64,000 nucleotides of DNA from Naegleria gruberi. Taxonomy: Eukaryota. A model generated the notes under the pieces. It had not been told where the DNA came from. It saw nothing but the letters and a program-made list of their open reading frames with translations, and searched no databases. This document shows, one piece after another, positions 1 through 40,069 of this stretch (within the stretch, counting starts at the first letter, position 1; each line of letters opens with the position of its first letter). A program made the translations under genes and the position numbers. The stretch lies in the NCBI GenBank assembly GCA_000004985.1, contig GG738889.1. The stretch is one strand, 5' to 3'.

Positions 1-2
1 AT

Positions 3-1637
3 TTAATAATTAGTGGAAACACCCAATTTTGTGTTTAAAGCAGCAATGGCAGATTTGACTGCACCAACAGACCATGTACGTTCCAAATGGAATGCTTCAC
101 CAACAAACACAATCTTTTCACCAGTAATCGGATTCAAAGCCCATTGTTGCTTTTGGTCAATTGAGAGAGTAGCACTAGGTTGTTCGAAATACCAAGCATC
201 ATTCCACAATCTGTAGACCAATTCAACTGGAGTAGGAATAGTTGTGTTTGGATAAAGTTCCTTCAAATAATTCATAACAGTTGTTTGAACAAGTGCTGAT
301 CCTCCCATTTCGTATAAATCATTCCATTCCTTAGCACAGTGACCATCAGCATAGGCAGCTCTGAAAGCATTGGTTTCCTTTCCTTGTGGAGAGAGTGGAA
401 TTTCAAGATATTGTAAACAATTTGAATCAGTCCAGATTCTTCTTGCTGGGCTAACTTGTTCCCACCATCTTGAGGCGAATCTCAACAAGATTGTCACAAC
501 TGGAACAGCTTTGGATTGTTTCAAGGCAGGAGAAGCGTTCAAAGCACTACCGAATTGACCAGTTACTTGTTTGAAAGCTTGTGGAGGAATGTTAATAATG
601 ACATTCTTGGCATGAATGAATCTTAATGAAGTTCCAATCAAATATTTCTTGACACTTGAAGTTGAGAATGGAGAAAGATCAATTGACTTGACACTTTCAG
701 ACATGAAGAAAGTAACTCTACCAGTTTGTTGAGCAGCAAGGGTCATCTTTCTAACAAATTCACCCATTCCACCAATTGGATAAAAGTTCAATGGGTCAAC
801 TGAGTCAGCCAAAGCAAATTCAGCATAGGTCTTTCTATCAACTGCTTGGAAATCACCTCTAAATCTAAATGTTGACATGAAATAAGACATTTCCTCAGCA
901 CTTCCCAATCCAGATTGAGTATATGAGAAGGTATCTTGAAGTGGTGAATTTTGGAAAGCAGCGCTTCCAGTATCAAGTAAAACATCCCATCCACTAACAG
1001 CACCACTTGCTAAAGGATAACCTTGAGCTCTGAGAATTTCCTTATCATCAGTTCTGACACCTCTGGAAACCATCAAGACATTACTTGGAATTCCCAAAGC
1101 TTGTGCTTCATATTTATCAACATAGTAACCACTGGTAAAGTTAATATTCAATTCAGCAGCAAGATTCTTCATGACAGTGTGTTGATTATTGACTCTGACA
1201 CCACCAAGGTCATACTTCTTCGAGTTGCCCAATGTGAAAGTTTCCAATCTTCCACCAAGTCTGCTAGTAGCTTCAACAACACAAATATTTTGTTTACCAG
1301 CTTTGGCAAGTTGATAAGCAGTGAACACACCAGCAATACCACCACCCAAAATGGCATAATCACATTGTGTTAAAGTTGCTGATTCGGCAGTTGCAGCAGA
1401 ATCTGTGGATGGAATTTCTGATTCTCTGAGTGAGAATAAAAGTGGAATTTGAGAGGAGAAACCAAGAGTAGTGATGGCTACTGTGGCAAGAATCAAAGAT
1501 GCCAATACCAAACCAAGTATAATGGCTGCTGTAGGCAATACTTTAGTTGTCTTGGTTGACTGTCCATACTCTAATAGATTTGTTAGTGGATCCAAAAGAT
1601 AACATTCAATACGTACCTTTAGATATTGGTTGTTCAA
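3..1637 (-). CDS. Flavin-containing amine oxidase (MAO/L-amino-acid oxidase family) with N-terminal membrane anchor
   Basis: The 544-aa ORF has the Rossmann FAD motif AILGGGIAGVFTAYQLAKAG followed by VVEATSRLGGRL, typical of amine oxidases/LAAO. A hydrophobic N-terminal segment (AAIILGLVLASLILATVAITTLGF) suggests a signal anchor. The stop TAA (plus-strand reverse complement at 3-5) lies inside the window, so the CDS is complete. Confidence 0.75.
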   Translation of the reverse strand: MNNQYLKVRIECYLLDPLTNLLEYGQSTKTTKVLPTAAIILGLVLASLILATVAITTLGFSSQIPLLFSLRESEIPSTDSAATAESATLTQCDYAILGGGIAGVFTAYQLAKAGKQNICVVEATSRLGGRLETFTLGNSKKYDLGGVRVNNQHTVMKNLAAELNINFTSGYYVDKYEAQALGIPSNVLMVSRGVRTDDKEILRAQGYPLASGAVSGWDVLLDTGSAAFQNSPLQDTFSYTQSGLGSAEEMSYFMSTFRFRGDFQAVDRKTYAEFALADSVDPLNFYPIGGMGEFVRKMTLAAQQTGRVTFFMSESVKSIDLSPFSTSSVKKYLIGTSLRFIHAKNVIINIPPQAFKQVTGQFGSALNASPALKQSKAVPVVTILLRFASRWWEQVSPARRIWTDSNCLQYLEIPLSPQGKETNAFRAAYADGHCAKEWNDLYEMGGSALVQTTVMNYLKELYPNTTIPTPVELVYRLWNDAWYFEQPSATLSIDQKQQWALNPITGEKIVFVGEAFHLERTWSVGAVKSAIAALNTKLGVSTNY

Positions 1638-2732
1638 TATCCAGAGTGTTTTCTGGTTTGGAAGTCAAAATGTCCATTATGGCTTGTGTGAAATTTTTTT
1701 AATAAATGATAATATTAGATTTTAGGATGTCAGAATATTAATTGCCTGTTCGCCATGAACCCTTTGTTTGTTGAATGCTATAAATTACCAACAGCTTATT
1801 ATTTTGTGAATTAAATGCCAAAATAGAAAGAGGCTATTTCAATAAGTTACCTTCTATATTTTCATAGTTTACAAAGAATTGGTCTGTAAGATCTGACATT
1901 GAGTCTCATGAAGGAAGATTTCACAAACTGCTGCCGTACGTGTTACTTGAATGCGCTGTAGATGGAATTGTGAACTGATTTGAACTTGGTATTACCTATC
2001 CAATTTCTTTACAGTAAATTTTGCACAAACCTCCTTAACATTTTAAGCTCTCATCTCATTGAGGAAACTCATTGGATATGTTGGAGCAATATCATAAATT
2101 GGACGAACACATATGGGTCTTGGGTATTTGTTGACCTCTCTTATTGAAATACAATTGGTATCATTTAATAAGCTTATTAAGAACTTTGACTACATCAGAA
2201 AAAGGTCGTATGCTTTCATATTGTTTCACAACAGTTGAATTAACTTGATCTCAACATCTACAATATCAGGTCATTTAGTGATCCTATCAGGATCTAAATT
2301 TCCATTTTACCAACATGGTGATATTTTGAAACTAGTTGACCTAATAGAAAGTCCTACTCCATTGTAATGAGTACAAATTGGTCCAAATTGATTGTCTGAA
2401 ACACTTAATTTTTCAAATTCAAAATGTCCATTAGGGATTCTAATAGCACTTGTTCGCAAATCTACGTCCTCTCAATTCTTTCATTAAGTGTCCTCGTCAT
2501 AATGCTCATTCAATCAATCTCCCATTCTTTCGAATCAAATGATAAAGTGAGGAGTAATTTTCTCAAATTGTCCGTCTTTTAATCTCCTTCATCATCTCTG
2601 TAATAATTTCAATCAAAAAAACAAAAATCCAAACACATCATCTGTGCTATACTCTATTGCACAGTAGAAAAAGCTAATAATAACAATACTACAATTATAT
2701 AATTGGATTAGTATTAAATAATTAGAAGAAAA

Positions 2733-4949
2733 ATGTTGAGTAAATTGAGAGTGCTCGGAGTTGGTGCTAACAAACTTTCAAGGAATTTTCTATCGAATAG
2801 AAGTGTTTCCTTGTCTTCATCATCCTATTTATCAGCCAGATATTCACGATTCAGTTGTGCAATTCAAGTAAATAATGCAAAAGTCAATTCTTCACCATCA
2901 TTTAAATTTCCGAATTTAAATTATCAACATAATGAACAGAGAAATTATTCATCATCATCTTTTGATAATAACAATACTAATCAATCATCATCTTCTGGTG
3001 AAAAATCTAAATTCTCCTTCTTTAAATTGGTCAAGAAATTAGCCAAATATCTATTCCTATCAATCAGTGCAGTTTTAACATTGTTGGCAATTTGTATTCC
3101 ACCTGGTTTATTGGTAGATTTTGATGAGGAATCGAGACGTGATAAATCAGCACTATTCTTTTTGATTTTGGATTCCTATAATGATACTTGGAGTATTTTG
3201 AAGAGATTTGTCACTTCATGTATTTCAATTACACAAGTAGCTCAAGCTTATAGAGAAATGAATAAGAGATTTGAACAACAATTGAAGGATATTTCAACCA
3301 ACAAGTATACTGCTGAGGAGGAAGAGAAAATATTGATAGAATATATTAATGCAAGAAGAGAGACTAATTTGAAGGCAGCCAACTTGCTATTGGACTTGTG
3401 TTTGGTTAATGCTGGTGCCTATGTGAAAGCAGGTCAATATCTTGCCTCACTCAATTATGCCATTCCAAAGGAATTTACAGAAACACTTTCTGTTTTACAA
3501 GACAAGTGTCAACAACATGATTTTTCAGTGACTGAAAAGATTTTGAAGGAAGATTTTGATAAGGATTTCGAAGAAATATTTTCCTACTTTGAAAAAGAAC
3601 CAATTGCCAGCGCCAGTATTGCTCAAGTTCACAAGGCAGTATTGAGAGAATCTGGAAAGAAGGTTGCTGTCAAGGTACAACATCCAAACTTGGAGAAAAT
3701 GTTCAAATCTGATTTGAACACTATGAAATTCTTGATGTGGTCCACAAAGAAGTTTTTCGATTTCCCATTTTCATGGTGTTTACCTGAATTTGAAAAGTTT
3801 TTGATCAGTGAATTGGATTTTGTCAATGAAGCAGCCAATTGCACTCATTTCAAAACAATATTCAAGGATTATCCAAATGATCAAATTGATTCACCATATG
3901 TGCATTGGAATTTGACCAGTAAGAGAATTTTAACCATGGATTTTATTGAAGGAGTAAAATTGAACGACTTTGAAGGAATGAAAAAGTTGGGAATTGATGC
4001 TAAGGAAATAAGTCAATTGATTGTGGACAGTTATTCAATTCAGACATTTGTTCATGGATTTATTCACTCTGACATGCACAATGGTAACTTGCTTGTGAGA
4101 AGATCACCAAAAACAAACAGGGCACAAGTTGTCTACCTGGATCATGGATGTTACAAACACTTGGATGAAGAAACTAGAAAGGATTATTGTAATTTGTGGA
4201 AGGCAGCTATTTTCAGAGATCATGAAAATCTCAAACTCTACACTGAAAAGTTTGGAATTGATGGAAAGTACTATCCTCTCTTTGGTCTCTTCTTGACCTT
4301 CTCCAATTATATGGATAAGAGTTCAACAGCAATGGTCGATCAAAGAAAGAACATGTCAAAAGATGAAGTCAAGAAGATGTTCAACAATATTAGAGAAACC
4401 TTCTTCCCAGGCAGCAAACACAAAGCTCAAGATTTATTCAATATCATTGAAGAAATGTTCAAGAATATGAAATTAGATTTAATTCTTCTCATGAGAGCCA
4501 ATATTCAAATTAGATCCATCACCAAAGAATTGGGTAAACCAATCAATAGATTTGCAACAATGGTTGAATACTGTCTCAGAGGTTTGCACTATGAAAGAGA
4601 AAATTATGGAATGTTATGCAAACCACACAGAGAATCCGATTCCAAGACAGTTCTTGTCACTAAGGTTACACCAACTCCATTCTTCCACACTCTCACCTTT
4701 CAATTATTAAGATTCAAATGTGAATTACTAGCTCTGGAAGTTGTCTTTGTTTTGGCCAGAATGTCCATGAGAGTTTTGAACTTTTTCATGCCAGGTAACT
4801 TTGAATCTGAAGAAGCCATGTCTGATGAGAGAAGAGAAACTGAACATGTTAAGGCAAGAATTGAAGGAAGAAGAAAAATGGAACTTGAATCAAAGGAAGA
4901 CATGGAAGAATTATCTACTGAATCAACTACTCCTGCTCCTGCTCAATAA
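2733..4949 (+). CDS. ABC1/ADCK (UbiB-family) atypical protein kinase
   Basis: The 738-aa ORF starts at a real ATG. It carries the ABC1 signature PIASASIAQVHKAVL...GKKVAVKVQHP and the downstream HxDxHxGN-like catalytic block IHSDMHNGNLLV. There is one predicted TM segment (LFLSISAVLTLLAICIPPGLL) and an acidic C-terminal tail. Confidence 0.8.
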   Translation: MLSKLRVLGVGANKLSRNFLSNRSVSLSSSSYLSARYSRFSCAIQVNNAKVNSSPSFKFPNLNYQHNEQRNYSSSSFDNNNTNQSSSSGEKSKFSFFKLVKKLAKYLFLSISAVLTLLAICIPPGLLVDFDEESRRDKSALFFLILDSYNDTWSILKRFVTSCISITQVAQAYREMNKRFEQQLKDISTNKYTAEEEEKILIEYINARRETNLKAANLLLDLCLVNAGAYVKAGQYLASLNYAIPKEFTETLSVLQDKCQQHDFSVTEKILKEDFDKDFEEIFSYFEKEPIASASIAQVHKAVLRESGKKVAVKVQHPNLEKMFKSDLNTMKFLMWSTKKFFDFPFSWCLPEFEKFLISELDFVNEAANCTHFKTIFKDYPNDQIDSPYVHWNLTSKRILTMDFIEGVKLNDFEGMKKLGIDAKEISQLIVDSYSIQTFVHGFIHSDMHNGNLLVRRSPKTNRAQVVYLDHGCYKHLDEETRKDYCNLWKAAIFRDHENLKLYTEKFGIDGKYYPLFGLFLTFSNYMDKSSTAMVDQRKNMSKDEVKKMFNNIRETFFPGSKHKAQDLFNIIEEMFKNMKLDLILLMRANIQIRSITKELGKPINRFATMVEYCLRGLHYERENYGMLCKPHRESDSKTVLVTKVTPTPFFHTLTFQLLRFKCELLALEVVFVLARMSMRVLNFFMPGNFESEEAMSDERRETEHVKARIEGRRKMELESKEDMEELSTESTTPAPAQ

Positions 4950-9793: not shown

Positions 9794-10063
9794 ATGTATC
9801 ATAAATTATTAAAAAAACATTCTCTTTTGTAAATTTATTGAGTTGCTAATATTAATATTTTGAAACATGGCAAATTTTAATTAAATAGAGATTACCATTC
9901 AACAACAAGGAACGTGTACCCCTGCGTCTTCAACTCATCTTCAATTTTTTTACGCTGGTAATAAAAGTCATAATAGCTAAGGGTTAAAGTCAATTGTTTG
10001 AATGAACCTTGTTTACAAAATACTAAGTATGAACTTGTATAAAACAAAAACATCTCAAAAAAA

Positions 10064-11390
10064 ATGTCTCAACTAAAGGATCTTCCAACCGAACTTGTTG
10101 GTACCATTTTGTCCTATTCAACTCTTCAAGATAGTTTTCTATGGAATACAGTCAGTAAACAATGGAATCAATTGCTACGTGAATATGTCTTTTCTCGTGT
10201 CTTTACCTATTGTGAATTGCATGCTAATAATGATTTTTCCTATTCCTCTAAAGAAATCAAGGAAATTACAAACCAGGATGATGCTGGTGATGATGATGAT
10301 GATGAATATGGTGGATATCAATCCTATCAATTGGAAAATATCTTGATGAGAAGAGGACATTCAGCAGTCAGTCTCGATGATGAATCTAAAATTTTGGTAT
10401 TTGGTGGATTTTGTGGAGATAGACATTGTAATGAATTGTTTGTTGTAGATATTGATAAAAAGACAGTTGAAAGAAAGGTTGAGAATAGAACTAGTGATAA
10501 AGATGTTTTAGATGAGAGTATCATGATGGGTAGATCTTTCCATCCAATGGTTTTAATTTCTGAAAACAAGTTTCTTGTAACTGGTGGATATTGTAATTAT
10601 ACTTTGGACAATTGTCCAAATTTGAGAGATACTTGGATTATTGAATTTAGTGAAAATGATTTCAAATTTACCAAACTTAATCAATCGGGAGATGTTCCAC
10701 CTCCAATGGAAAGTCACTCATTGGTTTATTACAATGGTTATTGCATCTCTTATGGTGGAAGTAGCTTTTTTGAAGATGATGATTTGGGAATGAAACATAA
10801 GGATGTCTATGCATTGAATGTTGAGAGTGGATCGTGGACGAAACTGAGAATTAAACAACAGGAAAGAGGACCTCCTGCCCTTACTGGCCATTCATGTCAT
10901 CTCATTGAGGGAACAAACAAGATGATTCTCTATGGTGGTTACGATCAGGAAAATTCCACTCACAATTCATTGTGGATGCTTCACATTGTTCTCCCAGATG
11001 AAACCAAATTCTTCAATGAGTTTAGTTACTGGGAAGAGATTATTCCACAAACCAATTCCTATGTTCCTGAACCAACATTGTATCATCGTTCTCTATTATT
11101 GCAGAATAGATTATTGGTTGTTTATGGAGGTGCATTGGATTGAGAGTTCCATTCACACTGATCAATTCTCTGTCTTTGATTTGGAAACTAGAAAGTGGAC
11201 TAATCTATTGAATGATGAATGTCTTTTGAAGAAAGATCCAGAAGAGGCTCCAATCAGAGTTTATGGACATACATTGACCTATTTACCAAAGAGTGGAAGA
11301 TTTGTGGTTTTGGGTGGATCCAGTTCTGATTCTGATTATTACAAAGGATTCTCTATGAGTGTTGGAATCTTCTCTCCATTTGTAAATTAG
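10064..11390 (+). CDS. F-box/Kelch-repeat protein (apparent +1 frameshift near 11145)
   Basis: An N-terminal F-box (LPTELVGTILSYSTLQDSFLWNTVSKQWNQLL) is followed by Kelch/galactose-oxidase repeats (LVFGGF, LVTGGY, ILYGGYD, LVVYGG, VVLGGS). ORF 10064..11143 ends VYGGALD* and the Kelch repeat continues in the +1 frame (…IHTDQFSVFDLETRKWT…, ORF 10932..11390). No GT..AG intron of length 1 mod 3 fits. A single-base indel in GGATTGAGAG is the simplest explanation. Confidence 0.65.
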
Positions 11391-11512
11391 TAAAATTAGT
11401 GTAAATGTATTGAACATGAAATAATTCCAACCAGTTCCCTTATTACTGGCAGTGAAAGAAGCAAGACGAGTAAAAGAATAAGAATATGTAATAGATAAAA
11501 TTTCATGTTATT

Positions 11513-12875
11513 TTAATCCTCTGATTCTTCATCAGTGTTGGCTTGAGCATTTTCATCTAGCTCATCATAATCAGATTTCATCTCATCAAAGTTAAATAGT
11601 ACCATTGGAAATTCTTCTGATTCCATTCCTTCTCCCACAAACCAGTGGCAAAAAGCTCGTTTGGTATAACTTGGCATGTATGCCTTTTGTATTTCAATAA
11701 AGGTATTCATGATGGCAGTCGTATTATGTGCAACATGAGCAGTATTGGAAAATTTGAAAGGATCATTATTAATGATTGGAGTTTTAGAGAGTGAAGAGCT
11801 GATACTAGTTTGGACATATTTGCTAAATATTGAAGAAGCATCAGGAGATCGGAAATATGAGCTCGTATCAATAATATTTCTCAAAGAGTATCCTGAACCT
11901 CTCCAAGAAACATTTAAGGCAAGTGTTTTACCTGATGCAAGGTCAATATTATTCATTCTATTCGAAGCAGATACTAATTCAGAAGGATTATATTTTCCAA
12001 TTTCTGTGAAATCCGAAAAGTGATTCGAAATAAAGTTGACTCTTTTGAATGGTACCAAATGTTCATAAATTGATTTCATTGATTTTCCACTACGTATTCC
12101 AAATCGTTGACTAGATGTAAGACTGGAAATTGCTTGAGCTATGAGAAAGTTAATATCCTTATATTGTGGATTTTCCAAGCCATGCATTTTGCTTAAATTA
12201 TACAGTGATGTGTTATCAAAGAAAAAGCTTGCATCCACTGCTTCTCTAATTGCAGAAATTGAGAGTAATACATTATAGGAGGCCACTACCTCATTGGCAT
12301 ATTTAGAACATGGCAAGACTGAAAAGGTACTCTTTGAAAATTCAGTAATTTTGCAAATAGTATCAAAAACATACTGTTGAAATTTTCGTTTCATTCGCCA
12401 ATTTTGTACATAATGATTCAGCCCATCCAGATCCTGTTCCTCCAGACAATGAATGTGTCATCATGACTCCCTGTGGCGAATCACATCTCTCCAATAATTT
12501 TCTCAATCTATTCTCGATATCATCACTCTTTTCTTTGTACATCCAATATTTTCCCCTCGAATAAATCGATGCAGCACTTTCCTTTCCTCTTATTAAATTA
12601 TCCTTCTTATGTATTTTTGAATAGGGTGAAGAGGAAACTCCCAATGAATCCAAAACCTCAGGATCCGAATCAACAAACAAACTTCTCGATGAGAAAACAC
12701 CCTCCGAATTTTCATCAAAAACCGATCCAATATTATTATTTTCAATACTATCCACCTCAGAGAGTTGCATCTTTCCATCAGGTCCAACCATGTGCTCTCT
12801 CGCCAACAATTCCCACAATTCCAAACCAATCTGAGAACCAGCGCCACCAACATGAAGGAAAATGAGTTCGTGCAT
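11513..12875 (-). CDS. Highly divergent alpha-like tubulin (2 exons; 43-nt intron at 12332..12374)
   Basis: Exon 1 (12875..12375) reads MHELIFLHVGGAGSQIGLELWELLAREH…PDGKM …IRGKESAASIYSRGKY… SGGTGSGWAESL. These correspond to alpha-tubulin HVGQAGVQIG..CWEL, ITGKEDAANNYARG and the GGGTGSG GTP-binding motif. Exon 2 (12331..11513) has …LPCSKYANEVVASYNVLLSI… and the C-terminal tubulin signature KRAFCHWFVGEGMESEEF followed by an acidic tail. The two ORF-track pieces are joined by a GTATGT…CAAAG intron of 43 nt that restores the frame (167 + 272 codons, about 439 aa). Confidence 0.7.
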
Positions 12876-13006
12876 TTTTTTTGTATTTTTTCGAGTTGTT
12901 GTTGTTCGGTTGCAGGGAACTTAGTTGGAACTTGGTTGTAACAATAGGAACAAGTAATTATTACAGGATAGTATTATGTATTAATTTTGTTAATGTTTAA
13001 CATGAA

Positions 13007-13079
13007 GCCGACATAGCTCAGTTGGGAGAGCGTAAGACTGAAGATCTTAAGGTCCCTGGTTCGATCCCTGGTGTCGGCA
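13007..13079 (+). tRNA. tRNA-Phe (anticodon GAA)
   Basis: GCCGACATAGCTCAGTTGGGAGAGCGTAAGACTGAAGATCTTAAGGTCCCTGGTTCGATCCCTGGTGTCGGCA folds into a 73-nt cloverleaf. It has a 7-bp acceptor stem (GCCGACA/TGTCGGC), a D-loop AGTTGGGAGAGC, anticodon loop CTGAAGA (GAA), a TpsiC arm GGTTCGATCC and discriminator A. It is a near-canonical eukaryotic tRNA-Phe sequence. Confidence 0.85.
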
Positions 13080-21854: not shown

Positions 21855-23231
21855 TTATTGAATTATGGAAATATCAGAGAGGAGGTTTTTTCTTGAGCAA
21901 TTCAACAAACTCTTGAAAAATCTTTGAACACCCACATTAGCTCTATCCAGATAAAGTACCAAACTATTTGGACCAGTTTTGTAGGTAACTGCTTGTGAGC
22001 TGAATTCCTTTTTCACATCAACAAAAAGGTCATTAACTAAACCTGATGAATTGTATGCATTTCCCTTCAATACTAAAATATCTCCGTCCAATAGGAATGC
22101 CAAATAATCTCTATTCAGTTCCATTGAAATAATTTCTACAGGGAATGGATTGACGATTTGCCTCACATTCAATGATTTGTTTGATGAAGGCAAACCGTAC
22201 TTGTCCTCAATTTCGCTCACTGGAATATTGTTCAGTTTAGGATAATAATCATTACTGGTAGCATATAAATGATAGAATCCATAGATGGATTTTAAGAGTA
22301 AACTATCTGATCCAGCAAATCCAATTGTTGATGCAAAAGCTGGATTGATCCTTCCCATTAATTCCTTTTCTTCAATGCATTGTCCATTAAATGTGCTTCC
22401 TCCTATTATTATTATCATTTGAATAAATATAATATGGTATCAGCAGTATTGACAAGATCATTTCAAATAATTACACTTACCTGTATAAAGAATACCATCC
22501 TGAGTTATTGCACAAACGTGGAAATTACCAGCACACATTTTCATTATTGGAGCATGTGTTCTGACAATGAAATCTGGCCAATTATGTTCGTTACCTCCTT
22601 GAAGCCAATTTTGACCAGTCATGTGTATGTCAGTATTGTTGACAACACAAGTTGAGAAGGAAAATGAACAAGCAATATGAGTGATCTGTCCTCCTGAAGC
22701 CAGTTCAACACCAGGATTGAAGACAGGAATTGGAAAATATGAAAATCTTTCATCTCCACATTCTCTCCGCACTACACTGTTATCAGCCAATTGTCTATAT
22801 TGATTAGTTCCCATTCCATACAATACAGTTTGCTTTTCTTCCACATGTTTAACAAGAAAAATTACTTGTTCAGTGTATGACGATATATCCAACACCTTCT
22901 TTTTAATACCATCAAACTCATCATAGGTTTTCACTAAATATCCAGCATCGGTATTGTTTTGTAGTATTGTGCACTTGTCGTGTCTACTACTATTGGAACC
23001 ATCTTTTTCAATGACAAATACTCTGCCGCTCTCCTCTACAATTCTGATCGTGTTTGGATTGCAATCAACGTGTCTGATCCGAGTAATCTGAGGTATATGA
23101 GCAGTGATCAAATTCAAACGACTAGCAGAGTTGCCAAGAAAATGTGGACCATCAATTGGCTTCTCCTCCTTCGGCGTACTGGCAGAGTAGAAGGCAAATT
23201 TGAGCATTTTTTTTAAAATTTCCAAGTTCAC
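21855..23231 (-). CDS. RCC1-repeat (regulator of chromosome condensation-like) protein, 2 exons (intron 22403..22480)
   Basis: RCC1-type repeats appear in both pieces: LYGMGTNQYRQLA, HIACSFSFSTCVV…IHMTGQNWLQGGNEH, CAGNFHVCAITQDGILYTG and, after the intron, GSTFNGQCIEE. A GTAAGT…AATAG 78-nt intron joins ILYTG|GSTFNGQC in phase 1 and removes the stop of the upstream ORF. The total is about 432 aa. Confidence 0.55.
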
Positions 23232-26635: not shown

Positions 26636-28213
26636 ATGGCAAACTACAAACGACTGACCCGTGATGTTGAATACTTCATCAGAAAGGAATATCTGGAAAG
26701 ATTGAAGAAGATCGGAGGTGATTTTTCATTGCCCACACGATCACTAAATAATTCCAATAATTCCTTCATGCTAATTGTGAATCCAATGATCATTTCTCAA
26801 CATGTATTTTCTTACTTTGAAGCTTATTCATCTGATTGGACTCGATTCTTGTTGGTTTGTAAAGAATGGTTTGAATGTATTGTCATGCAGGACGATGGAT
26901 TGTTGTGGAGAGAATTGTACAGAAGCATGCTCAACGGAATGACTAAATATTATAAAGTCCTTTCGCCATTCAATTCATTGAATTATCAATTGGAAAGCTT
27001 TGATTCGATTCGCCAACAAGATGTGAATTCATATCGTGTGAATGAGGAAAATTGTAATGATGAGAAATTTAAGGAAATTCCAGACAAGACATGGAAGGAA
27101 AATTATGACGACATTCTGATTCATAGTTTGGGATTGAAGAAACTCGAGACTGAATTCGATTCCAAGACTACGAGATATATTGCCAGATGCTTCCTAGATG
27201 CTGAAGTCAAGTTTAGAAATAGAGGAGAATTAGCAAGTGTCAGAGAACTCTTCCTACACAAATTCCTATTTGATGCCATCTTTCCAATGATTTTAAAGAA
27301 TCGAGTTGAAAGTCAAAAATATGAAAATCCACTATTAAGAAGTGATTTGAAAATTTTGGAAAAGAAATTGTACTTTGTTGAGACATCATGGTGTATTGAT
27401 ACCCTTTTAAATATTATGGAAGTTAAAAAGGGACTCATGTTGAGAATTTCATACTTGTCGAGTGAGGATGGACTGGTTCACCACCAATTCTATGGAACCA
27501 CAGAGAATGATAGAAATTTGAAATTCTTAATTGATGTAGAGGAGAGCTCGATCATTCTAGATGCCATTCCTGTTGACATTCACCAAAATTTGAGACACAG
27601 CACAGAGTTCGAAACTATTCAATTAGCCACTGGAATGGATTCCATCATTCATGAAGAATTCACTCATTATCTTACAACTTTACAAGAATTACTTGAGAAA
27701 AAGTTTGGTAACATTCACTTGGCTGAATTATTCTGTAAATATTGGTACTGTATCAATCGAATTGAAGACCCAGTTTCGGTCTCTTTCTCTGATGAAAATC
27801 CATTCTGGTTCTTGGATATTCTCTCCAAAAAGGCAAAAACCTCAATCGAGAAGAAATTCTTAGATTCACTCTCAGTTTCATGTGTTTCAATTCTTACAAT
27901 GTGCAGACAAACTCAAAAAGATTGGATATCACTTTCATCCTTTCATCTTGGAATTGAAGATAAGAAGAAGAAGAAGAAGAAACAGGAAACCCAACCTGAA
28001 AGTAAGGATCTTACCCAGGTAAATTCGAAACTCGAAACCTTTAATCTCTCGGTGGACGATTGTTGGAATTGGCGAGGAATTTTGATAAGGCAGAAGGATA
28101 GTAGAGTTGTATTAGAAGGATTAATTACCAGTAGAGAGGGAATCCTTCTCTTTGGCTTGGATGTTTATAATGCTGAACAGGGTTGCTTCTTTACATTTAA
28201 AAAATTAAATTAA
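26636..28213 (+). CDS. F-box-like domain protein (hypothetical), tandem to previous
   Basis: The 525-aa ORF starts at a real ATG. It has an F-box-like segment IISQHVFSYFEAYSSDWTRFLLVCKEWFECIVMQDDGLLWRELY and an internal KKKKKKK run encoded by an (AAG)n microsatellite at ~27961-27985. It is in the same orientation as, and immediately downstream of, the other F-box-like gene. Confidence 0.4.
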   Translation: MANYKRLTRDVEYFIRKEYLERLKKIGGDFSLPTRSLNNSNNSFMLIVNPMIISQHVFSYFEAYSSDWTRFLLVCKEWFECIVMQDDGLLWRELYRSMLNGMTKYYKVLSPFNSLNYQLESFDSIRQQDVNSYRVNEENCNDEKFKEIPDKTWKENYDDILIHSLGLKKLETEFDSKTTRYIARCFLDAEVKFRNRGELASVRELFLHKFLFDAIFPMILKNRVESQKYENPLLRSDLKILEKKLYFVETSWCIDTLLNIMEVKKGLMLRISYLSSEDGLVHHQFYGTTENDRNLKFLIDVEESSIILDAIPVDIHQNLRHSTEFETIQLATGMDSIIHEEFTHYLTTLQELLEKKFGNIHLAELFCKYWYCINRIEDPVSVSFSDENPFWFLDILSKKAKTSIEKKFLDSLSVSCVSILTMCRQTQKDWISLSSFHLGIEDKKKKKKKQETQPESKDLTQVNSKLETFNLSVDDCWNWRGILIRQKDSRVVLEGLITSREGILLFGLDVYNAEQGCFFTFKKLN

Positions 28214-28878
28214 AAGAAGTTTAGTCTACTTTCTTCAACTTGATTTTTGAACATTTTGTTGCGAAAATTAATTTTTATCAAATTTTGTTGTCAGGTGAGT
28301 ATTAAATTGATTTGGTTTTCTATTAACCAATTTCGAATAGTGGCCGTCAGAAGTATTCTCTTTCCGATACTCGAGTAGATTTTGTTATCCAACACAACAC
28401 CAAGACGAATCTATTGTAATGTGTGAAAAATCGCACAGTTTGTGTTCAAGTCAACTTTGCACGTTGCCACTTTCAAAATATTCCCTCACCCAAACCGCAA
28501 GCAAGGTTAACACAAAAAAAAACTGTCACTTGCCAGTTGGTCTTTCCCTTGTACATTTTCGCATCCATTATCCAAAAAGGCAAGACACCTTCACACACAT
28601 TATTCTCTCAATAGTGTTGTCGTGCACGCAACAAACACACTCTTGGCTACCACTAAAATACCCAACAGAACAACAACGAGAGTAGAGTAGTATCAAAAGC
28701 GCGCCATAACAACCCATCACTGGACATTAACAATCTATCTTTCACAACACACAGTTTTCAACATCGATATTGTGTTTTTATTTCACTCTCAGATTGATAC
28801 CAACAACAATATTTATATTGAATCTTTTTTATACATCTATTTGCTTTGGAATTTACAAATTGAGAATTTTACCACTTT

Positions 28879-31110
28879 ATGTTGAATATTCACAATTTAC
28901 CAATCACAGCAACAATAACTCTACCTAAACCAACAACACTCAACAATAACTCTAATAACTTTTCAACAACAACTACTCTAAACATGTTACAAGCAGATTT
29001 GAGTATTCTATCCGGTAACAACACTTCCACCACTCAACAAGGAAGAGCTGGAGGTCTTATTCTTGGTAATGGCAATAACAACCTCTCCTCTTCTCCTTCA
29101 CCTTCTGGTGCTGCTACTTCTTCTTTATTGTCTTCCTCTCCACACTTGATGGGAAGTATTCATCATTTGGTATCTGATAATTCTAATATGAACATGAATA
29201 ATAGTAACAATAACAATTTGATGCCTGCTAATAATTTGGTGGGCGTTGGTGCTTCCTATTCATATTTATTGAATAATATGAATAGTAACAACAACAATAA
29301 TAATACTAATAATAATAATATGATTAATAATAATATGAATAATATGAATAATAATAATAATACTATTAATTCATCTACTAATGGTGGAATTAATAGTGGT
29401 AATAATAATAACTCTTATATGGAGTATCAACAATTGTTGTTTGAGAGACAGAGTTTGAGTCCTTTCCAACCAATCATTCCACTCACTATCAAATTATTAG
29501 ATGAACGTATTCAATATTATCAAAATTCATCCATTCTTTCTCAACAACAACAATCGAATACTGTTTCGAATAATCCATCTCCTAACCTAAATGCTCAACC
29601 TCCAAAGAAGAAACTTAACTCTCTCGTTGTTCACCAACCACCCATTCTCTACAATCAACAAACAACATCTCTTACAAGTCCAACTCTATTGAACAGTGGT
29701 ATCAATTCTAATAGCACTCCAACTCCAACTCTTGGTACTGCCTCCTTGTTGAGTGAATTGGTTGCTGCTTCAAATAATAACAGCAGCAGTACTGGTAGTA
29801 CTAATTCTACTGCTAGCACTACTCCAAATGCACAACAACAATTGACTACTTCTTCAAACAATGGTGGAAGTAGTGGAAATGTGAGTGCATCTTCATTGAT
29901 TGATGATGAATCTCCATTCAATTTATCAGCTTCTGCCAATGCTTCCTTTTCTCTATTCAAGAGTCCTAGTAATGCTGGTGGAAACTCAACTATTGGAGCC
30001 AATTTGCAAATTCTCAAGGGAAATTCCCAACAACAATTGAACATTAATAATAATGGAACCATGCCTCCTCCTCAGTCTCCTGCCATGAATATTCCAACCA
30101 ACAATAATAGTATTGCAGTCAATAATTCACAACAATCATCTAATAGTATTGTTGTCAATAACTCTGCCAATAATACTTCTACTACTCCTTCCGGAAATAA
30201 GGCAAGCATTGTTGTTGTGGCAAGTAATAATAATAGCAATAGCACATCAACAGCTCCTGGAGCTAAAAAGTTGCAAGATGGAACTACAAGTAAGATTATT
30301 TCTGCTCTCGATGTTGGTTCTTCAATCATGACTCCAAATAGCACAACTACACCATCCCCAACTGGTTCTACTCAATCATCAACTGCCTCTGATTCAATTG
30401 GTGGTAGTGATGAGTTTACCTTCCTTAGATATGAGAATGTGGACATTAAGCAAAAGATTGTCAATTCCTATACTGTTCTCTTGTTCATTCCTCAAGCAGA
30501 ATTCCCAGAGTACAACTTTATTGGACGTATTTTAGGTCCAAAGGGAAGTTATTTAGATCAAATTAGAAAGAATTCCAATTGTTTTATTAGAATTAGAGGT
30601 AGAGGATTGAACTTGAACAATGGAAGTCCAATTCCACAAATGCCACTCGTACAAAGCAATCCAACCAATGACAGTGATGTCTATGCATCATATCCACTCC
30701 ATGTCTTTATTGAAGGTAAGGGACAAGCAACCAACAAGAGAAAGAACTTGCAAAAGGGAATTCAACTCATGCTTCCTCTTCTTGTTCCAACTGAATATGA
30801 AAAGGACATTTTGAAGAGATGGCAATTACAACAATGGAGAAATGAAAAGAATTCAAATGGAGATAAGATGGTCTCACCTCCTCTCCCTCTTCCAAACTCA
30901 TTTAATTCAAGCAATGCTGACTTGATTTACTCGTCCTCTCCAACTAATATTGGAGGACAACCAGGTGGATACAAAGATTCAGGAAGTTACAGCTCTCTCT
31001 CTTACGATGATGATGAGGGCGATTTTGATAATGAGCTTTCTGAAGATAAATTGAGTCCAAACAGCACCAACTATTTGAACAGATATCACCCATATCGTTC
31101 TCATATTTAA
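28879..31110 (+). CDS. STAR/GSG-family KH-domain RNA-binding protein (Sam68/Quaking-like) with long Asn/Ser/Gln-rich low-complexity arms
   Basis: The KH/GSG core YNFIGRILGPKGSYLDQIRKNSNCFIRIRGRG…YPLHVFIEGKG…LMLPLLVP matches Sam68/QKI ([33 protein letters not shown]…LHVFIEV…FLVP). The N-terminal 500 aa are poly-N, poly-S, poly-Q and poly-T low complexity. Confidence 0.6.
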   Translation: MLNIHNLPITATITLPKPTTLNNNSNNFSTTTTLNMLQADLSILSGNNTSTTQQGRAGGLILGNGNNNLSSSPSPSGAATSSLLSSSPHLMGSIHHLVSDNSNMNMNNSNNNNLMPANNLVGVGASYSYLLNNMNSNNNNNNTNNNNMINNNMNNMNNNNNTINSSTNGGINSGNNNNSYMEYQQLLFERQSLSPFQPIIPLTIKLLDERIQYYQNSSILSQQQQSNTVSNNPSPNLNAQPPKKKLNSLVVHQPPILYNQQTTSLTSPTLLNSGINSNSTPTPTLGTASLLSELVAASNNNSSSTGSTNSTASTTPNAQQQLTTSSNNGGSSGNVSASSLIDDESPFNLSASANASFSLFKSPSNAGGNSTIGANLQILKGNSQQQLNINNNGTMPPPQSPAMNIPTNNNSIAVNNSQQSSNSIVVNNSANNTSTTPSGNKASIVVVASNNNSNSTSTAPGAKKLQDGTTSKIISALDVGSSIMTPNSTTTPSPTGSTQSSTASDSIGGSDEFTFLRYENVDIKQKIVNSYTVLLFIPQAEFPEYNFIGRILGPKGSYLDQIRKNSNCFIRIRGRGLNLNNGSPIPQMPLVQSNPTNDSDVYASYPLHVFIEGKGQATNKRKNLQKGIQLMLPLLVPTEYEKDILKRWQLQQWRNEKNSNGDKMVSPPLPLPNSFNSSNADLIYSSSPTNIGGQPGGYKDSGSYSSLSYDDDEGDFDNELSEDKLSPNSTNYLNRYHPYRSHI

Positions 31111-38618: not shown

Positions 38619-40069
38619 TTACAACTTGTTCAAGATCTTATCAGCAGCCTTTTGCAAACGGTTAGTCTTGAGGTCTCTCTTTTCCAGCAATTCTCTCTTT
38701 CCTTGCATCTTCATCTTGGCTCTATCTCTACAACAGCAGCAGAAGATACAGAAACCAAGGATACAAGCAAAGACGGCACAAACAACAATGACAAGAATGG
38801 AAACACCAACAGCAATATAAATACCATTTTCAGCAATAACAGTCAAAAGATAGAATGGATCAACACTACACTTTCCAGAATCAGATTCAGCATATGGATT
38901 GTAAACGTAGGCCTTTGGATTTGTACAACCAGTAGCACATTCTTCACCAGTACAGGCGATTCTAGATCTCAAAGTGGCAACATCAGAAGCTGCAGGTGGT
39001 TCGAAAGAAACAGTCTTAAGACTTGGCTAATTTAAAATTAATTGAAAAGTTCAAATCAAAACAACTTACCAAATAGAATGGAACTGGAGTACCAAGTTGA
39101 ACGCTCTTGGCAATGTTGGCCTTCAAAGGATCCTTTGGAATAACATATTGTTCAGTATTTTGGACAACTGGAGCAACAAAGTCCAAAACCTTACTTCTAA
39201 TTTCAGACATGGCAGTTTCAATTGAACGAGCCCCAGATGGACACCAAGCTGGATAAGCAGTAGTGTCAGTACATGTTGAACTTCCTCCAAAGTTATCGAA
39301 TTTGAAACCATCTTCAGAGTAGAATCTACTACAAGTGTACTTGTAACTAGAAGCATCACTGCTACAATCGCAAGTTGAAAGGAGGGTTTGACAGTGGTCA
39401 ATATTCATAAAGTGTTCAGAACAGGATCCGAGCTTAGTGAAAAGATCTGGCAACTTTGGAACAATACATGTAAGCAAACTATAATTTTCAATTGAGAGAG
39501 TCTTTGTTTGACATGATTTTCCGTAACTATCAATAACACACAAGCCAGAGTTTGCACAACAAAAGCCACTACATGACTTTCCAATTTCAGCAAGATAGGA
39601 CAAGTAATTATTAGCAACACAACTAATATAACCATTCTTTGGGAAAGCATTTGCACAATAAGAATACTTCAACTTTTCAATACAGGATGGACAACTTGTA
39701 ACACCCTTTCCAAGCAAATAGGCTTGCATACTGTTGAAGGAATCTATACAGATCATTATATTCATCACATCATCATATTGAAAACCTACCTTCAAGGAAC
39801 TTATCCATATATTCAGCATAGGTAGAGTATGTTCCGTTTCCTGTAACGATTGGTTTTGAGAAGAAAGCCTTATCGGTATATCTTCCGTTCATCATTGAAC
39901 AGAAAGTAAGATTTGAAATTATTGTTTCTCCACAATGCAATTGATCACCCATACTAGCAACCAAATTTTTACATTGACCCTTAACGAGTGGTATATTATT
40001 AATCAAGGCTAATAAAACAATAACCGCAACAGCGAAAATTTTCAATGCCCTCATTGGAATTTGATTCAT
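38619..40069 (-). CDS. Cys-rich type I transmembrane glycoprotein (3 exons: 40069..39790, 39743..39070, 39026..38619)
   Basis: Exon 1 encodes a signal peptide (MNQIPMRALKIFAVAVIVLLALINNIPLVKGQC). The ectodomain has more than 30 Cys in CxxC/CC arrangements and several N-x-S/T sites. A TM segment IYIAVGVSILVIVVCAVFACILGFCIF is followed by CCCC and a basic tail. The introns are 46 nt (GTAGGT…TATAG, phase 1) and 43 nt (GTAAGT…ATTAG, phase 0), and both joins keep the frame. The total is about 453 aa. Confidence 0.55.

What the first reader, a model, noticed from the sequence alone, without database searches (positions are those of the whole stretch)
11513..12875. Highly divergent alpha-like tubulin rescued by a 43-nt intron
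The two ORF-track fragments join through a GTATGT…CAAAG intron of 43 nt (12332..12374). This gives a 439-aa tubulin-fold protein. The GTP-binding loop SGGTGSG is intact. An IRGKESAASIYSRGKY block, a KRAFCHWFVGEGMESEEF block and an acidic tail are present. Identity to canonical alpha/beta tubulin is low across most of the sequence. The N-terminal pattern HVGxAGxQIG…WEL…EH…PDG is alpha-like. This does not look like delta, epsilon, gamma or FtsZ. It could be a lineage-specific divergent tubulin paralogue, or a fast-evolving copy. Either would be worth placing phylogenetically.
Basis: partly seen in the sequence, partly recalled or inferred. Interest (0 to 1): 0.6.

Follow-up and report, generated by a model that had tools for sequence, protein, structure and literature searches.

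The report
Known divergent Naegleria alpha-like tubulin gene
This is a real two-exon gene for a very divergent alpha-like tubulin of the amoeba Naegleria gruberi, but it is already annotated in GenBank and included in published tubulin trees, so only its function remains unknown.

Summary
On the minus strand, exon 1 (12875..12375), a 43-nt GTATGT…AAAG intron (12374..12332) and exon 2 (12331..11513) encode a 439-aa tubulin.

It is already known. The spliced protein is residue-for-residue identical to GenBank EFC40969.1 / XP_002673713.1 (UniProt D2VQL5), annotated "alpha-tubulin [Naegleria gruberi]". By position it is JGI model 71268. It belongs to the highly divergent "bonus" tubulins reported with the 2010 genome, and it sits in the published 2022 tubulin tree.

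- **Divergence:** 31% identity to human alpha, 28% to beta and 24% to gamma.
- **Alpha affinity:** it scores 43.6 bits better on an alpha profile than on a beta profile. My NJ tree puts it on the alpha side, sister to other N. gruberi-only divergent copies.
- **Relatives:** its closest relative among 1.84 billion cluster-representative proteins (15 billion underlying) is an N. gruberi paralogue at 32-35% identity. No orthologue turned up in any other species.
- **Structure:** the predicted model is a complete tubulin fold (pLDDT 87, TM about 0.9).
- **What is kept:** the G-box and the base-contacting residues.
- **What is lost:** the T7 loop including the catalytic Glu254 (now Ser), the M-loop, H10 and H12.

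It is therefore unlikely to act as a canonical polymerising alpha subunit. Expression and splicing remain untested.

The parts
12375..12875 (-). Exon 1: ATG at 12875..12873, codons 1-167. Covers the N-terminal nucleotide-binding half (S1 to the start of S5).
   Evidence: tblastn of human TUBA1B residues 1-158 gives 39% identity. It forms the first part of the exact match to XP_002673713.1.
12332..12374 (-). 43-nt spliceosomal intron, phase 0: GTATGT donor, TACTGAA branch-like site, AAG acceptor.
   Evidence: Removing it is needed to reproduce the GenBank protein exactly. It is identical in a second N. gruberi-like haplotype, L001. Splicing has not been shown experimentally.
11513..12331 (-). 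Exon 2: codons 168-439 plus the TAA stop (11515..11513). Covers S5 through H12 and the acidic tail.
   Evidence: tblastn of TUBA1B residues 165-450 gives 26% identity. Matches XP_002673713.1.
12837..12848 (-). T1 loop, GGAG (alpha has GQAG). The phosphate-contacting Gln11 is replaced by Gly.
   Evidence: Alignments.
12552..12587 (-). T3 loop region, GKESAASIYSRG (alpha has GKEDAANNYARG). The alpha-type GKE is kept. Alpha Asp98, Asn101 and Asn102 become Ser, Ser and Ile.
   Evidence: The S3-T3 element is 62% identical to the alpha consensus and 23% to the beta consensus.
12426..12446 (-). T4 G-box, SGGTGSG (tubulin signature GGGTGSG, with the first Gly replaced by Ser).
12059..12100 (-). Degenerate T7 loop and H8, GIRSGKSMKSIYEH (alpha has DGALNVDLTEFQTN). 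Asn249 becomes Gly, Asp251 becomes Ser, the catalytic Glu254 becomes Ser, and Asn258 becomes His.
   Evidence: Only 3 of 11 alpha-invariant positions in this element are kept.
11609..11662 (-). Conserved H11 / H11-H12 block, KRAFCHWFVGEGMESEEF.
   Evidence: 11 of 18 alpha-invariant positions in H11 and the H11-H12 loop are kept.
11516..11575 (-). Acidic C-terminal tail, SDYDELDENAQANTDEESED, with no terminal Tyr.

Best explanation
**Shown.** The window is Naegleria gruberi NEG-M nuclear DNA. The feature is the already annotated two-exon gene for XP_002673713.1 / EFC40969.1 / D2VQL5 ('alpha-tubulin'), which by position is JGI model 71268. Its product is a complete tubulin-fold protein on the alpha side of the family. 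It belongs to a group of very long-branch alpha-like paralogues found so far only in N. gruberi. These are the 'bonus' tubulins of Fulton 2022, first listed in the 2010 genome paper.

**Inferred mechanism.** The protein keeps the fold core. It also keeps the parts of the nucleotide pocket that hold the base and the G-box (Asn206, Tyr224, Asn228, GGTGSG), the alpha-type T3 region, and H11. It therefore probably still folds and binds a guanine nucleotide on its plus-end face.

It has lost the whole T7 NxDxxE motif, including the catalytic Glu254. It has also lost most conserved residues of H8, H10, the M-loop (which is shortened), the S9-S10 loop and H12. It therefore most likely cannot act as a canonical alpha subunit: it could not stimulate GTP hydrolysis in a beta subunit below it, nor make standard longitudinal and lateral lattice contacts.

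The most likely role is a non-canonical, low-abundance or stage-specific tubulin. It might pair through its plus-end face with a beta or beta-like partner, perhaps one of the divergent N. gruberi beta-likes. In that case it would act as a non-propagating (terminal or sequestering) subunit, or it would build a specialised non-microtubule assembly, rather than contributing to bulk flagellar or spindle microtubules.
For: - **Identity:** exact sequence look-up. JGI numbering of the neighbours is sequential: 71270 at 15769-17619 and 71275 at 24812-26452, with four ORFs between them. That makes 71268 the tubulin.
- **Published context:**
  - Velle 2022 mentions 13 alpha and 9 beta genes, 'some highly divergent'.
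  - Its trees place Ngru_71268 with N. gruberi-only sequences at 97.9/1/99 support on a branch of 1.37.
  - Fulton 2022 describes seven alpha and five beta 'bonus' tubulins that are 'unlikely to assemble typical microtubules'.
- **Family and fold:** PF00091 at 3.2e-43; PDB alpha-tubulins about 1e-62; AF2 pLDDT 87.2 and pTM 0.90; Foldseek TM about 0.9.
- **Alpha affinity:**
- **Orphan status:** an exhaustive phmmer search of 1.84 billion representatives found nothing above about 39% identity. The only hit that matches this protein better than it matches human tubulin is the N. gruberi paralogue XP_002679827.1.
- **Retained versus lost surfaces:**

| Element | Identity to alpha consensus |
|---|---|
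| S3-T3 | 62% |
| H7 | 60% |
| S1-H1 | 50% |
| H11 | 48% |
| T7-H8 | 18% |
| M-loop | 7% (4 gaps) |
| H10 | 0% |
| S9-S10 | 16% |
| H12 | 22% |

- **Key residues:** Q11G, E71D, N101S and E183A are changed. D69, N206, Y224 and N228 are kept.
- **Paralogues:** T7 is also deleted or changed in the two paralogues.
- **ORF maintenance:** 439 sense codons stay open in a 34% G+C genome. A second haplotype has an intact ORF and an identical intron.
Against: - There is no transcript, EST, proteomic or localisation evidence for this gene in anything I could read. The JGI model name (fgeneshNG_pg) marks an ab initio prediction; that reading rests on my knowledge of JGI naming.
- The two available haplotypes differ by 3 replacement codons and 1 synonymous change. 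This does not demonstrate purifying selection.
- Several phosphate- and Mg-contacting residues are changed, so nucleotide binding itself is not assured.
- The pairing and capping idea is inferred from conservation patterns alone. No complex was modelled.
- The AF2 model used an alignment of canonical alpha-tubulins, so its confidence partly reflects the family rather than this sequence.
Confidence: 0.6

Rival explanations
1. Relic gene: an unexpressed or barely expressed duplicate of an alpha-tubulin that is drifting towards pseudogenisation. On this view the loss of T7, the M-loop and H10 is decay, not specialisation.
For: - About half of the alpha-invariant positions are lost: 81 of 174 are kept.
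- The closest paralogue is flagged 'LOW QUALITY PROTEIN' in RefSeq.
- The strain comparison gives 3 replacement changes to 1 synonymous change, compatible with neutrality.
- No orthologue was seen outside N. gruberi.
- The gene model is ab initio only.
Against: - A 439-codon ORF remains open in AT-rich DNA despite about 65-70% amino-acid divergence from every relative. That requires long-term selection against stops and frameshifts.
- Divergence is strongly patterned: the fold core, G-box, base-binding residues and H11 are kept, while surface interfaces are lost. It is not uniform.
- The splice signals are intact and identical in a second haplotype.
- The model folds confidently.
Confidence: 0.2
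2. A working alpha isotype that co-assembles with a beta-tubulin into genuine microtubule structures, for example basal-body triplets, rootlet-associated or cortical microtubules of the flagellate. Fulton (2022) asks whether this is the case.
For: - It has alpha-side affinity.
- It keeps an acidic tail and the H11 to H11-H12 block.
- The alpha-type T3 region is conserved.
- Naegleria is known to use distinct tubulin sets for distinct arrays.
Against: - The catalytic Glu254 and the N249/D251 T7 motif are absent.
- The M-loop is shortened with 0 of 3 invariant residues kept, H10 has 0 of 2, and H12 has 4 of 11.
- The protein scores lower against an alpha profile (265.6 bits) than human gamma-tubulin does (312.9 bits).
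Confidence: 0.12
3. An ancient, separate tubulin class that is sister to all alpha-tubulins, retained in Naegleria and lost elsewhere. On this view it is not a recent fast-evolving duplicate.
For: - In the published ML tree the 71268 group attaches outside the crown alpha clade. It joins at the node linking alpha to gamma plus beta.
- In my NJ tree its position inside the alpha side is unresolved, with 0-13% support at deeper nodes.
Against: - All members are from one species, although N. fowleri and Acrasis kona were in the same tree.
- Branches are extremely long (1.2-2.6 substitutions per site), and the bootstrap around the attachment is low (UFBoot 11-20). This is the expected signature of long-branch attraction.
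- Findeisen 2014 found only six eukaryotic classes and folded comparable ciliate and Naegleria oddities into alpha or beta.
Confidence: 0.05

Closest known systems
N. gruberi divergent alpha-like paralogues XP_002679827.1 (D2V7X5) and XP_002679287.1 (D2V982): the 'bonus' tubulins of Fritz-Laylin 2010 / Fulton 2022
   Same: - Same species and similar length (437-446 aa).
- All carry the 'alpha-tubulin' annotation.
- They share GGAG/GNCG in T1, the CDS motif before S4, Asp at alpha position 71, a degenerate or deleted T7, and a conserved KRAFxHWxVGEG block.
- They are sister in my NJ tree at 88% and 62% bootstrap.
- XP_002679827.1 is the only database protein that matches this one better than it matches human tubulin.
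   Different: - Only 31-35% identical to each other.
- Each has its own insertions and deletions. XP_002679827.1 has an insertion of about 13 residues after H4 and a T7 deletion.
- Only this one has an acidic tail.
Canonical alpha-tubulin (for example human TUBA1B; PDB 1JFF, 3RYH chain A)
   Same: - Same fold (TM about 0.9) and colinear over 1-438.
- It shares the G-box, Asn206/Tyr224/Asn228, the alpha-type GKE…Y.RG T3 region, NTTAI, and most of the alpha-specific S9-S10 insertion (41 residues against 44 in alpha and 36 in beta, by my count on the alignment).
- It has an acidic tail.
   Different: - 31% identity.
- No Glu254/Asn249/Asp251, no Lys40 and no terminal Tyr.
- Gln11, Glu71, Asn101 and Glu183 are substituted.
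- The M-loop region is shorter.
- No Pfam Tubulin_C hit at E<=0.01.
Naegleria mitotic alpha-tubulins (alpha6 type; JGI 58607 and 55745; Chung 2002, Velle 2022)
   Same: They are Naegleria-lineage alpha paralogues that diverged from the flagellar set, and are an example of the multi-tubulin hypothesis.
   Different: - Mitotic alphas are 57-58% identical to human alpha.
- They have orthologues in N. fowleri and Acrasis.
- They are shown to be expressed in dividing amoebae.
- This protein is 31% identical to human alpha, has no known orthologue and has no expression data.
Divergent ciliate tubulins (Paramecium 'theta', 'iota', 'kappa'; Stentor, Oxytricha and Stylonychia long-branch alpha/beta-likes)
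   Same: They are species- or lineage-restricted, very long-branch alpha- or beta-affiliated tubulins. Some have lost nucleotide-loop motifs and have been proposed to be structural rather than polymerising (Findeisen 2014). They cluster near the N. gruberi divergents in the ML tree.
   Different: There is no specific relationship. The proximity in trees has low support and is probably long-branch attraction. This protein keeps its G-box.

Membership tests
Tubulin/FtsZ superfamily, eukaryotic tubulin | Tubulin GTPase domain (Pfam PF00091) above the gathering score | tested here: met
   148.7 bits against a cut-off of 33, E=3.2e-43, residues 3-214.
Tubulin/FtsZ superfamily, eukaryotic tubulin | G-box signature (G)GGTGSG in loop T4 | tested here: met
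   SGGTGSG at residues 144-150; only the first Gly is changed.
Tubulin/FtsZ superfamily, eukaryotic tubulin | Intermediate / C-terminal domain (Pfam PF03953) and the complete three-domain fold | tested here: inconclusive
   No PF03953 hit at E<=0.01. However, the AF2 model has the full fold (pLDDT 87, pTM 0.90) and superposes on alpha-tubulin over about 438 columns with TM about 0.9.
Alpha-tubulin | Scores better against an alpha profile than against a beta profile, and matches alpha at class-discriminating positions | tested here: met
   265.6 bits against 222.0 bits, a difference of +43.6. Gamma, delta and epsilon controls give negative differences. It matches alpha at 8 and beta at 3 of 30 discriminating sites. 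All named hits of the paralogue profile are alpha.
Alpha-tubulin | Phylogenetic placement inside the alpha clade | tested here: inconclusive
   NJ places it within an alpha-side clade at 86% bootstrap, but with no resolution inside that clade. In the published ML tree its group joins as sister to the alpha clade, not inside the crown, with weak UFBoot.
Alpha-tubulin | T7 loop with Asn249/Asp251 and the catalytic Glu254 that activates GTP hydrolysis in the adjacent beta subunit | tested here: not met
   The three positions are Gly, Ser and Ser. Only 3 of 11 invariant T7-H8 positions are kept.
Alpha-tubulin | Alpha-specific insertion in the S9-S10 loop | tested here: inconclusive
   The loop region is 41 residues against 44 in alpha and 36 in beta, so most of the length is present. 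Only 16% of the residues match the alpha consensus.
Alpha-tubulin | Forms a heterodimer with beta-tubulin holding non-exchangeable GTP, and polymerises into microtubules | not testable with these tools
   This needs biochemistry or complex modelling. The lattice-contact elements (M-loop, H10, H12) are poorly conserved.
Naegleria mitotic alpha-tubulin clade | About 57-58% identity to human alpha, with orthologues in N. fowleri and Acrasis kona | tested here: not met
   31% identity to human alpha. It sits in a different, N. gruberi-only clade in the published tree.
Gamma / delta / epsilon tubulins | Closer to those classes than to alpha or beta | tested here: not met
   118 bits to human gamma against 197 to alpha. 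It is separated from the gamma, delta and epsilon references in the NJ tree. The gamma reference was validated against the PDB.
N. gruberi 'bonus' highly divergent tubulins (Fritz-Laylin 2010 Fig. S4B as described by Fulton 2022) | Encoded in the NEG-M genome, clearly tubulin, far below about 60% identity to flagellar tubulins, and with gaps and additions | tested here: met
   Inclusion of model 71268 in the Velle 2022 tree is shown. The equation of 71268 with this gene rests on sequential JGI numbering of neighbours.

The most novel reading that the evidence does not exclude
The N. gruberi-only divergent alpha-likes, including this gene, could be expressed, selected proteins with a new job. 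One possibility is an alpha-like subunit whose nucleotide face can still dock a beta or beta-like partner, but whose opposite face is dead. Such a subunit would cap, terminate or sequester rather than propagate a protofilament. Another possibility is that it builds a non-microtubule tubulin assembly in a particular life stage (flagellate basal apparatus, cyst or meiosis).
Probability: 0.15. Interest if true: 0.6.

Novelty: already known. Interest (0 to 1): 0.22.

Why it matters
As a discovery it does not matter much. The gene, its intron-containing model, its 'alpha-tubulin' label and its long-branch position are already public.

Its residual interest is functional. Naegleria is the organism behind the multi-tubulin hypothesis. 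Besides its flagellar and mitotic sets it carries about a dozen very divergent alpha- and beta-like genes that nobody has characterised. Fulton (2022) lists them explicitly as an open question.

The residue-level picture given here (nucleotide face partly kept; T7, M-loop, H10 and H12 lost) makes a concrete, testable prediction that this copy is not a lattice-competent alpha subunit.

Tried and rejected
- **Accession search.** A full-text search for XP_002673713, EFC40969 and D2VQL5, and for '71268' with Naegleria, found no paper. The only trace is in the tree files of Velle 2022.
- **Missing sources.**
  - The 2024 transcriptome preprint has no supplementary tables held, and its text says nothing about the divergent tubulins.
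  - The 2010 genome paper and the 2010 differentiation microarray paper are not in the library.
  - I therefore obtained no expression data.
- **Truncated alignment.** The Velle 2022 alignment (Data S1) is cut off before the N. gruberi rows. I could not confirm 71268 by sequence, so I used the gene-order numbering instead.
- **First homology search.** The word-indexed search missed the N. gruberi paralogues entirely. They appeared only in the exhaustive search.
- **Strain dN/dS.** With only 4 changed codons, and about 10 in the neighbouring Kelch gene for comparison, the comparison has no power.
- **First intron scan.** My first regular-expression scan failed to list the tubulin intron itself because of a lazy-match flaw. 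I replaced it with an explicit enumeration of GT..AG pairs.
- **Tree method.** No maximum-likelihood tree software was available, so my own tree is neighbour-joining on Kimura distances. It should be read only for the well-supported nodes.
- **Tubulin cluster.** I considered and rejected a tubulin gene cluster. tblastn finds only this locus in the window. The neighbours are unrelated: ABC1 kinase, CAND1, F-box/Kelch and an UNC93-like transporter.
- **Reference sequences.** I then checked them against database proteins at 100% and 98% identity and against PDB gamma-tubulin at 1033 bits.
Full report
**1. What is in the sequence.**
The feature lies on the minus strand. Exon 1 runs from the ATG at 12875 down to 12375 (167 codons). 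A 43-nt segment follows at 12374..12332 (GTATGTTTTTGATACTATTTGCAAAATTACTGAATTTTCAAAG). Exon 2 runs from 12331 to the TAA at 11515..11513.

Read without splicing, the frame stops three codons into the 43-nt segment. The mechanical ORF list accordingly shows two ORFs of 170 and 293 aa.

I enumerated all GT..AG pairs near the junction that restore an open frame. There are eleven. Only the proposed pair has a consensus donor and keeps the protein colinear with alpha-tubulin across the junction. The others delete the G-box or strand S5.

The intron is 23% G+C against 34-39% for the exons. It has a TACTGAA branch-like site just upstream of the first AG.

A second short intron of the same style is at 42156..42207 on the minus strand (52 nt, GTATGT…TACTAAA…TAG). 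Removing it restores a complete protein-kinase catalytic domain. A 43-nt GTATGT intron is therefore ordinary for this genome.

**2. Where the window comes from and whether the gene is known.**
I looked up the exact spliced protein and several neighbouring ORFs in the 15-billion-protein collection. All came back as Naegleria gruberi proteins on one 348,446-bp scaffold.

The 439-aa product is identical from first to last residue to EFC40969.1 / XP_002673713.1 / UniProt D2VQL5, named 'alpha-tubulin [Naegleria gruberi]'.

The neighbours carry locus tags NAEGRDRAFT_71270 (15769-17619) and 71275 (24812-26452). Exactly four ORF-bearing genes lie between them. Counting backwards makes the tubulin JGI model 71268.

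[quoted passage not shown] 2022 (PMC9036621). The mapping is positional inference, not a sequence match, because the held copy of their alignment is truncated.

**3. What the literature says.**
[quoted passage not shown] They go on to study only the flagellar and mitotic sets.
- Fulton (2022, PMC9081340) recounts that the 2010 genome paper (Fig. S4B) reported 'bonus' tubulins: seven alpha and five beta. [quoted passage not shown] He lists their role as an open question.
- Findeisen et al. 2014 folded comparable Naegleria and ciliate oddities into the alpha or beta classes rather than creating new classes.
- No paper in the library mentions this gene by accession. I found no expression data for it.

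**4. How divergent it is, and which class it belongs to.**

| Comparison | Result |
|---|---|
| BLASTP vs human TUBA1B | 31% identity, 197 bits |
| BLASTP vs human TUBB | 28% identity, 187 bits |
| BLASTP vs human TUBG1 | 24% identity, 118 bits |
| Profile of 59 canonical alphas + human TUBA1B | 265.6 bits |
| Profile of 17 betas + human TUBB | 222.0 bits |
| Human gamma-tubulin on the alpha profile | 312.9 bits |

The human references were checked.

Gamma, delta and epsilon controls all prefer the beta profile, so the +43.6-bit alpha preference is informative. Human gamma-tubulin scores higher on the alpha profile than this protein does, which shows how far the protein has drifted.

At 30 positions that discriminate alpha from beta, it matches alpha at 8 and beta at 3.

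I built a neighbour-joining tree of 63 sequences with 200 bootstraps.
- The protein falls in the alpha-side clade (86%).
- It is sister to N. gruberi XP_002679827.1 (88%).
- XP_002679287.1 joins next (62%).
- Deeper positions inside the alpha side are unresolved.

In the published ML tree, 71268 groups with four other N. gruberi sequences at 97.9/1/99 support. The wider N. gruberi long-branch group joins as sister to the alpha clade, near the alpha/gamma/beta junction, with weak ultrafast bootstrap. No N. fowleri or Acrasis sequence is in that group, although both species were sampled.

**5. Relatives elsewhere.**
An exhaustive phmmer search of 1.84 billion cluster representatives found 5,657 tubulin-family hits. 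Nothing was above about 39% identity, apart from the ORF-fragment copy of this gene from an ENA assembly.

The only hit that resembles this protein more than it resembles human tubulin is XP_002679827.1 of N. gruberi (203 against 140 bits).

A profile of the three N. gruberi divergents retrieved only ordinary alpha-tubulins among the named hits. It found no protein from another Naegleria species.

The group is therefore N. gruberi-restricted as far as these databases show. A direct search of other heterolobosean genome assemblies was not possible with the tools.

**6. A second haplotype.**
An ENA 'metagenome' contig (L001, ERZ929261) is 99.0% identical over 3 kb. In the tubulin gene it has an intact ORF, an identical intron, three replacement codons and one synonymous change. 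All three replacements lie in or just after the variable H1-S2 loop (M36I, S43T, D71S).

This shows that the ORF and the splice signals are maintained in two lineages. It is far too little variation to measure selection. The neighbouring Kelch gene shows about ten substitutions.

**7. Structure and residues.**
AlphaFold2, with a 32-sequence alignment, gives a complete tubulin fold (pLDDT 87.2, pTM 0.90). The best PDB matches are alpha-tubulin chains at TM 0.87-0.91 and about 31% identity.

*Residues kept or lost* (alignment to 59 alphas and 17 betas):
- **Kept:**
  - the G-box (SGGTGSG)
  - Asp69, Asn206, Tyr224, Asn228 and Asn186
  - the alpha-type GKE…Y.RG T3 frame
  - NTTAI
  - KRAFxHWxVGEGM
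- **Changed in the nucleotide pocket:** Gln11 to Gly, Glu71 to Asp, Asp98 to Ser, Asn101 to Ser, Asn102 to Ile, Glu183 to Ala.
- **Lost in T7-H8:** Asn249 to Gly, Asp251 to Ser, the catalytic Glu254 to Ser, and Asn258 to His.

*Identity to the alpha consensus, by structural element:*

| Element | Identity | Note |
|---|---|---|
| S3-T3 | 62% | |
| H7 | 60% | |
| S1-H1 | 50% | |
| H11 | 48% | |
| H12 | 22% | |
| T7-H8 | 18% | |
| S9-S10 | 16% | |
| M-loop | 7% | four gaps |
| H10 | 0% | |

Overall, 81 of 174 alpha-invariant positions survive. The two paralogues also have a deleted or altered T7.

Pfam detects the N-terminal tubulin domain but not Tubulin_C. That fits the concentration of change in the intermediate domain.

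**8. Interpretation.**
*Shown:*
- The locus is an intact, correctly modelled, already annotated gene.
- It encodes a full tubulin fold of alpha affinity.
- It belongs to an N. gruberi-only set of very divergent paralogues.

*Inferred:*
- The pattern of conservation is non-random. The core and the nucleotide-bearing (plus-end) face are partly kept. The opposite longitudinal face, the lateral M-loop and the outer H12 surface are largely lost.
- The protein was therefore under selection to fold and probably to bind nucleotide. It was not under selection to occupy a normal position in a microtubule lattice or to trigger GTP hydrolysis in a neighbour.
- I commit to 'non-canonical, non-propagating alpha-like tubulin of specialised or minor use' as the most likely mechanism, with moderate confidence.
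- The main rival is that it is a relic on the way to becoming a pseudogene.
- The long open frame despite about 70% divergence, together with the patterned conservation, argues against pure decay. Without expression data that rival cannot be dismissed.

**9. Verdict.**
The finding is not new: the gene model, its name and its phylogenetic oddity are public. Interest is low. What remains open is the function of the whole 'bonus' tubulin set, which only transcript, localisation and biochemical data can settle.

Noticed in passing
window 10064..11390 (+), around 11143: The neighbouring F-box/Kelch gene is split into two overlapping ORFs in different frames in this window. The cause is a 2-nt difference: GATTGAGAG here against GATTGGGAGAG in the ENA contig L001. 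In L001 the same gene is a single intact 442-aa ORF. This is either a frameshift or assembly error in the NEG-M reference, or a strain-specific lesion that the reference gene model may paper over with an intron.
   Followed up: partly
window 13007..13079 (+): A tRNA-Phe(GAA) gene lies only 131 nt upstream of the tubulin ATG and is divergently oriented from it. The tubulin's whole 5' flank and promoter must therefore fit in that gap (ARAGORN, and Rfam at 67.9 bits).
   Followed up: no
window 42156..42207 (-): A 52-nt GTATGT…TACTAAA…AATAG intron interrupts the protein-kinase domain of an NHL/EGF-repeat receptor-kinase-like gene (ORFs 42180..44414 and 41606..42166). Splicing restores HRDLKPxN and DFG in frame, giving a 918-aa product. 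It is useful as a local, homology-supported example of a short yeast-like intron.
   Followed up: partly
L001 (ENA ERZ929261 / ERR1078381, project PRJEB11402), 1..3007 = window 12987..9984: An assembly deposited as a metagenome contains N. gruberi-like DNA that is 99.0% identical to the reference over 3 kb, indels included. It could serve as a second strain for population comparisons across the genome.
   Followed up: partly
window 26636..31110 (+): The RefSeq model XP_002673641.1 (1188 aa) joins the 525-aa ORF at 26636..28213 to the ORF at 28879..31110. It does so through a predicted intron of about 900 nt (about 28001..28908). That is far longer than the short introns seen elsewhere in the window, and the model drops the last about 70 codons of the first ORF. 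It may be a mis-fusion of two genes.
   Followed up: no
window 39027..39069 (-) and 22340..22480 (-): Two further candidate introns (43 nt GTAAGT…TTAG, and 141 nt GTAAGT…CCAG) would each join long open frames on both sides. I did not check them against annotated proteins.
   Followed up: no
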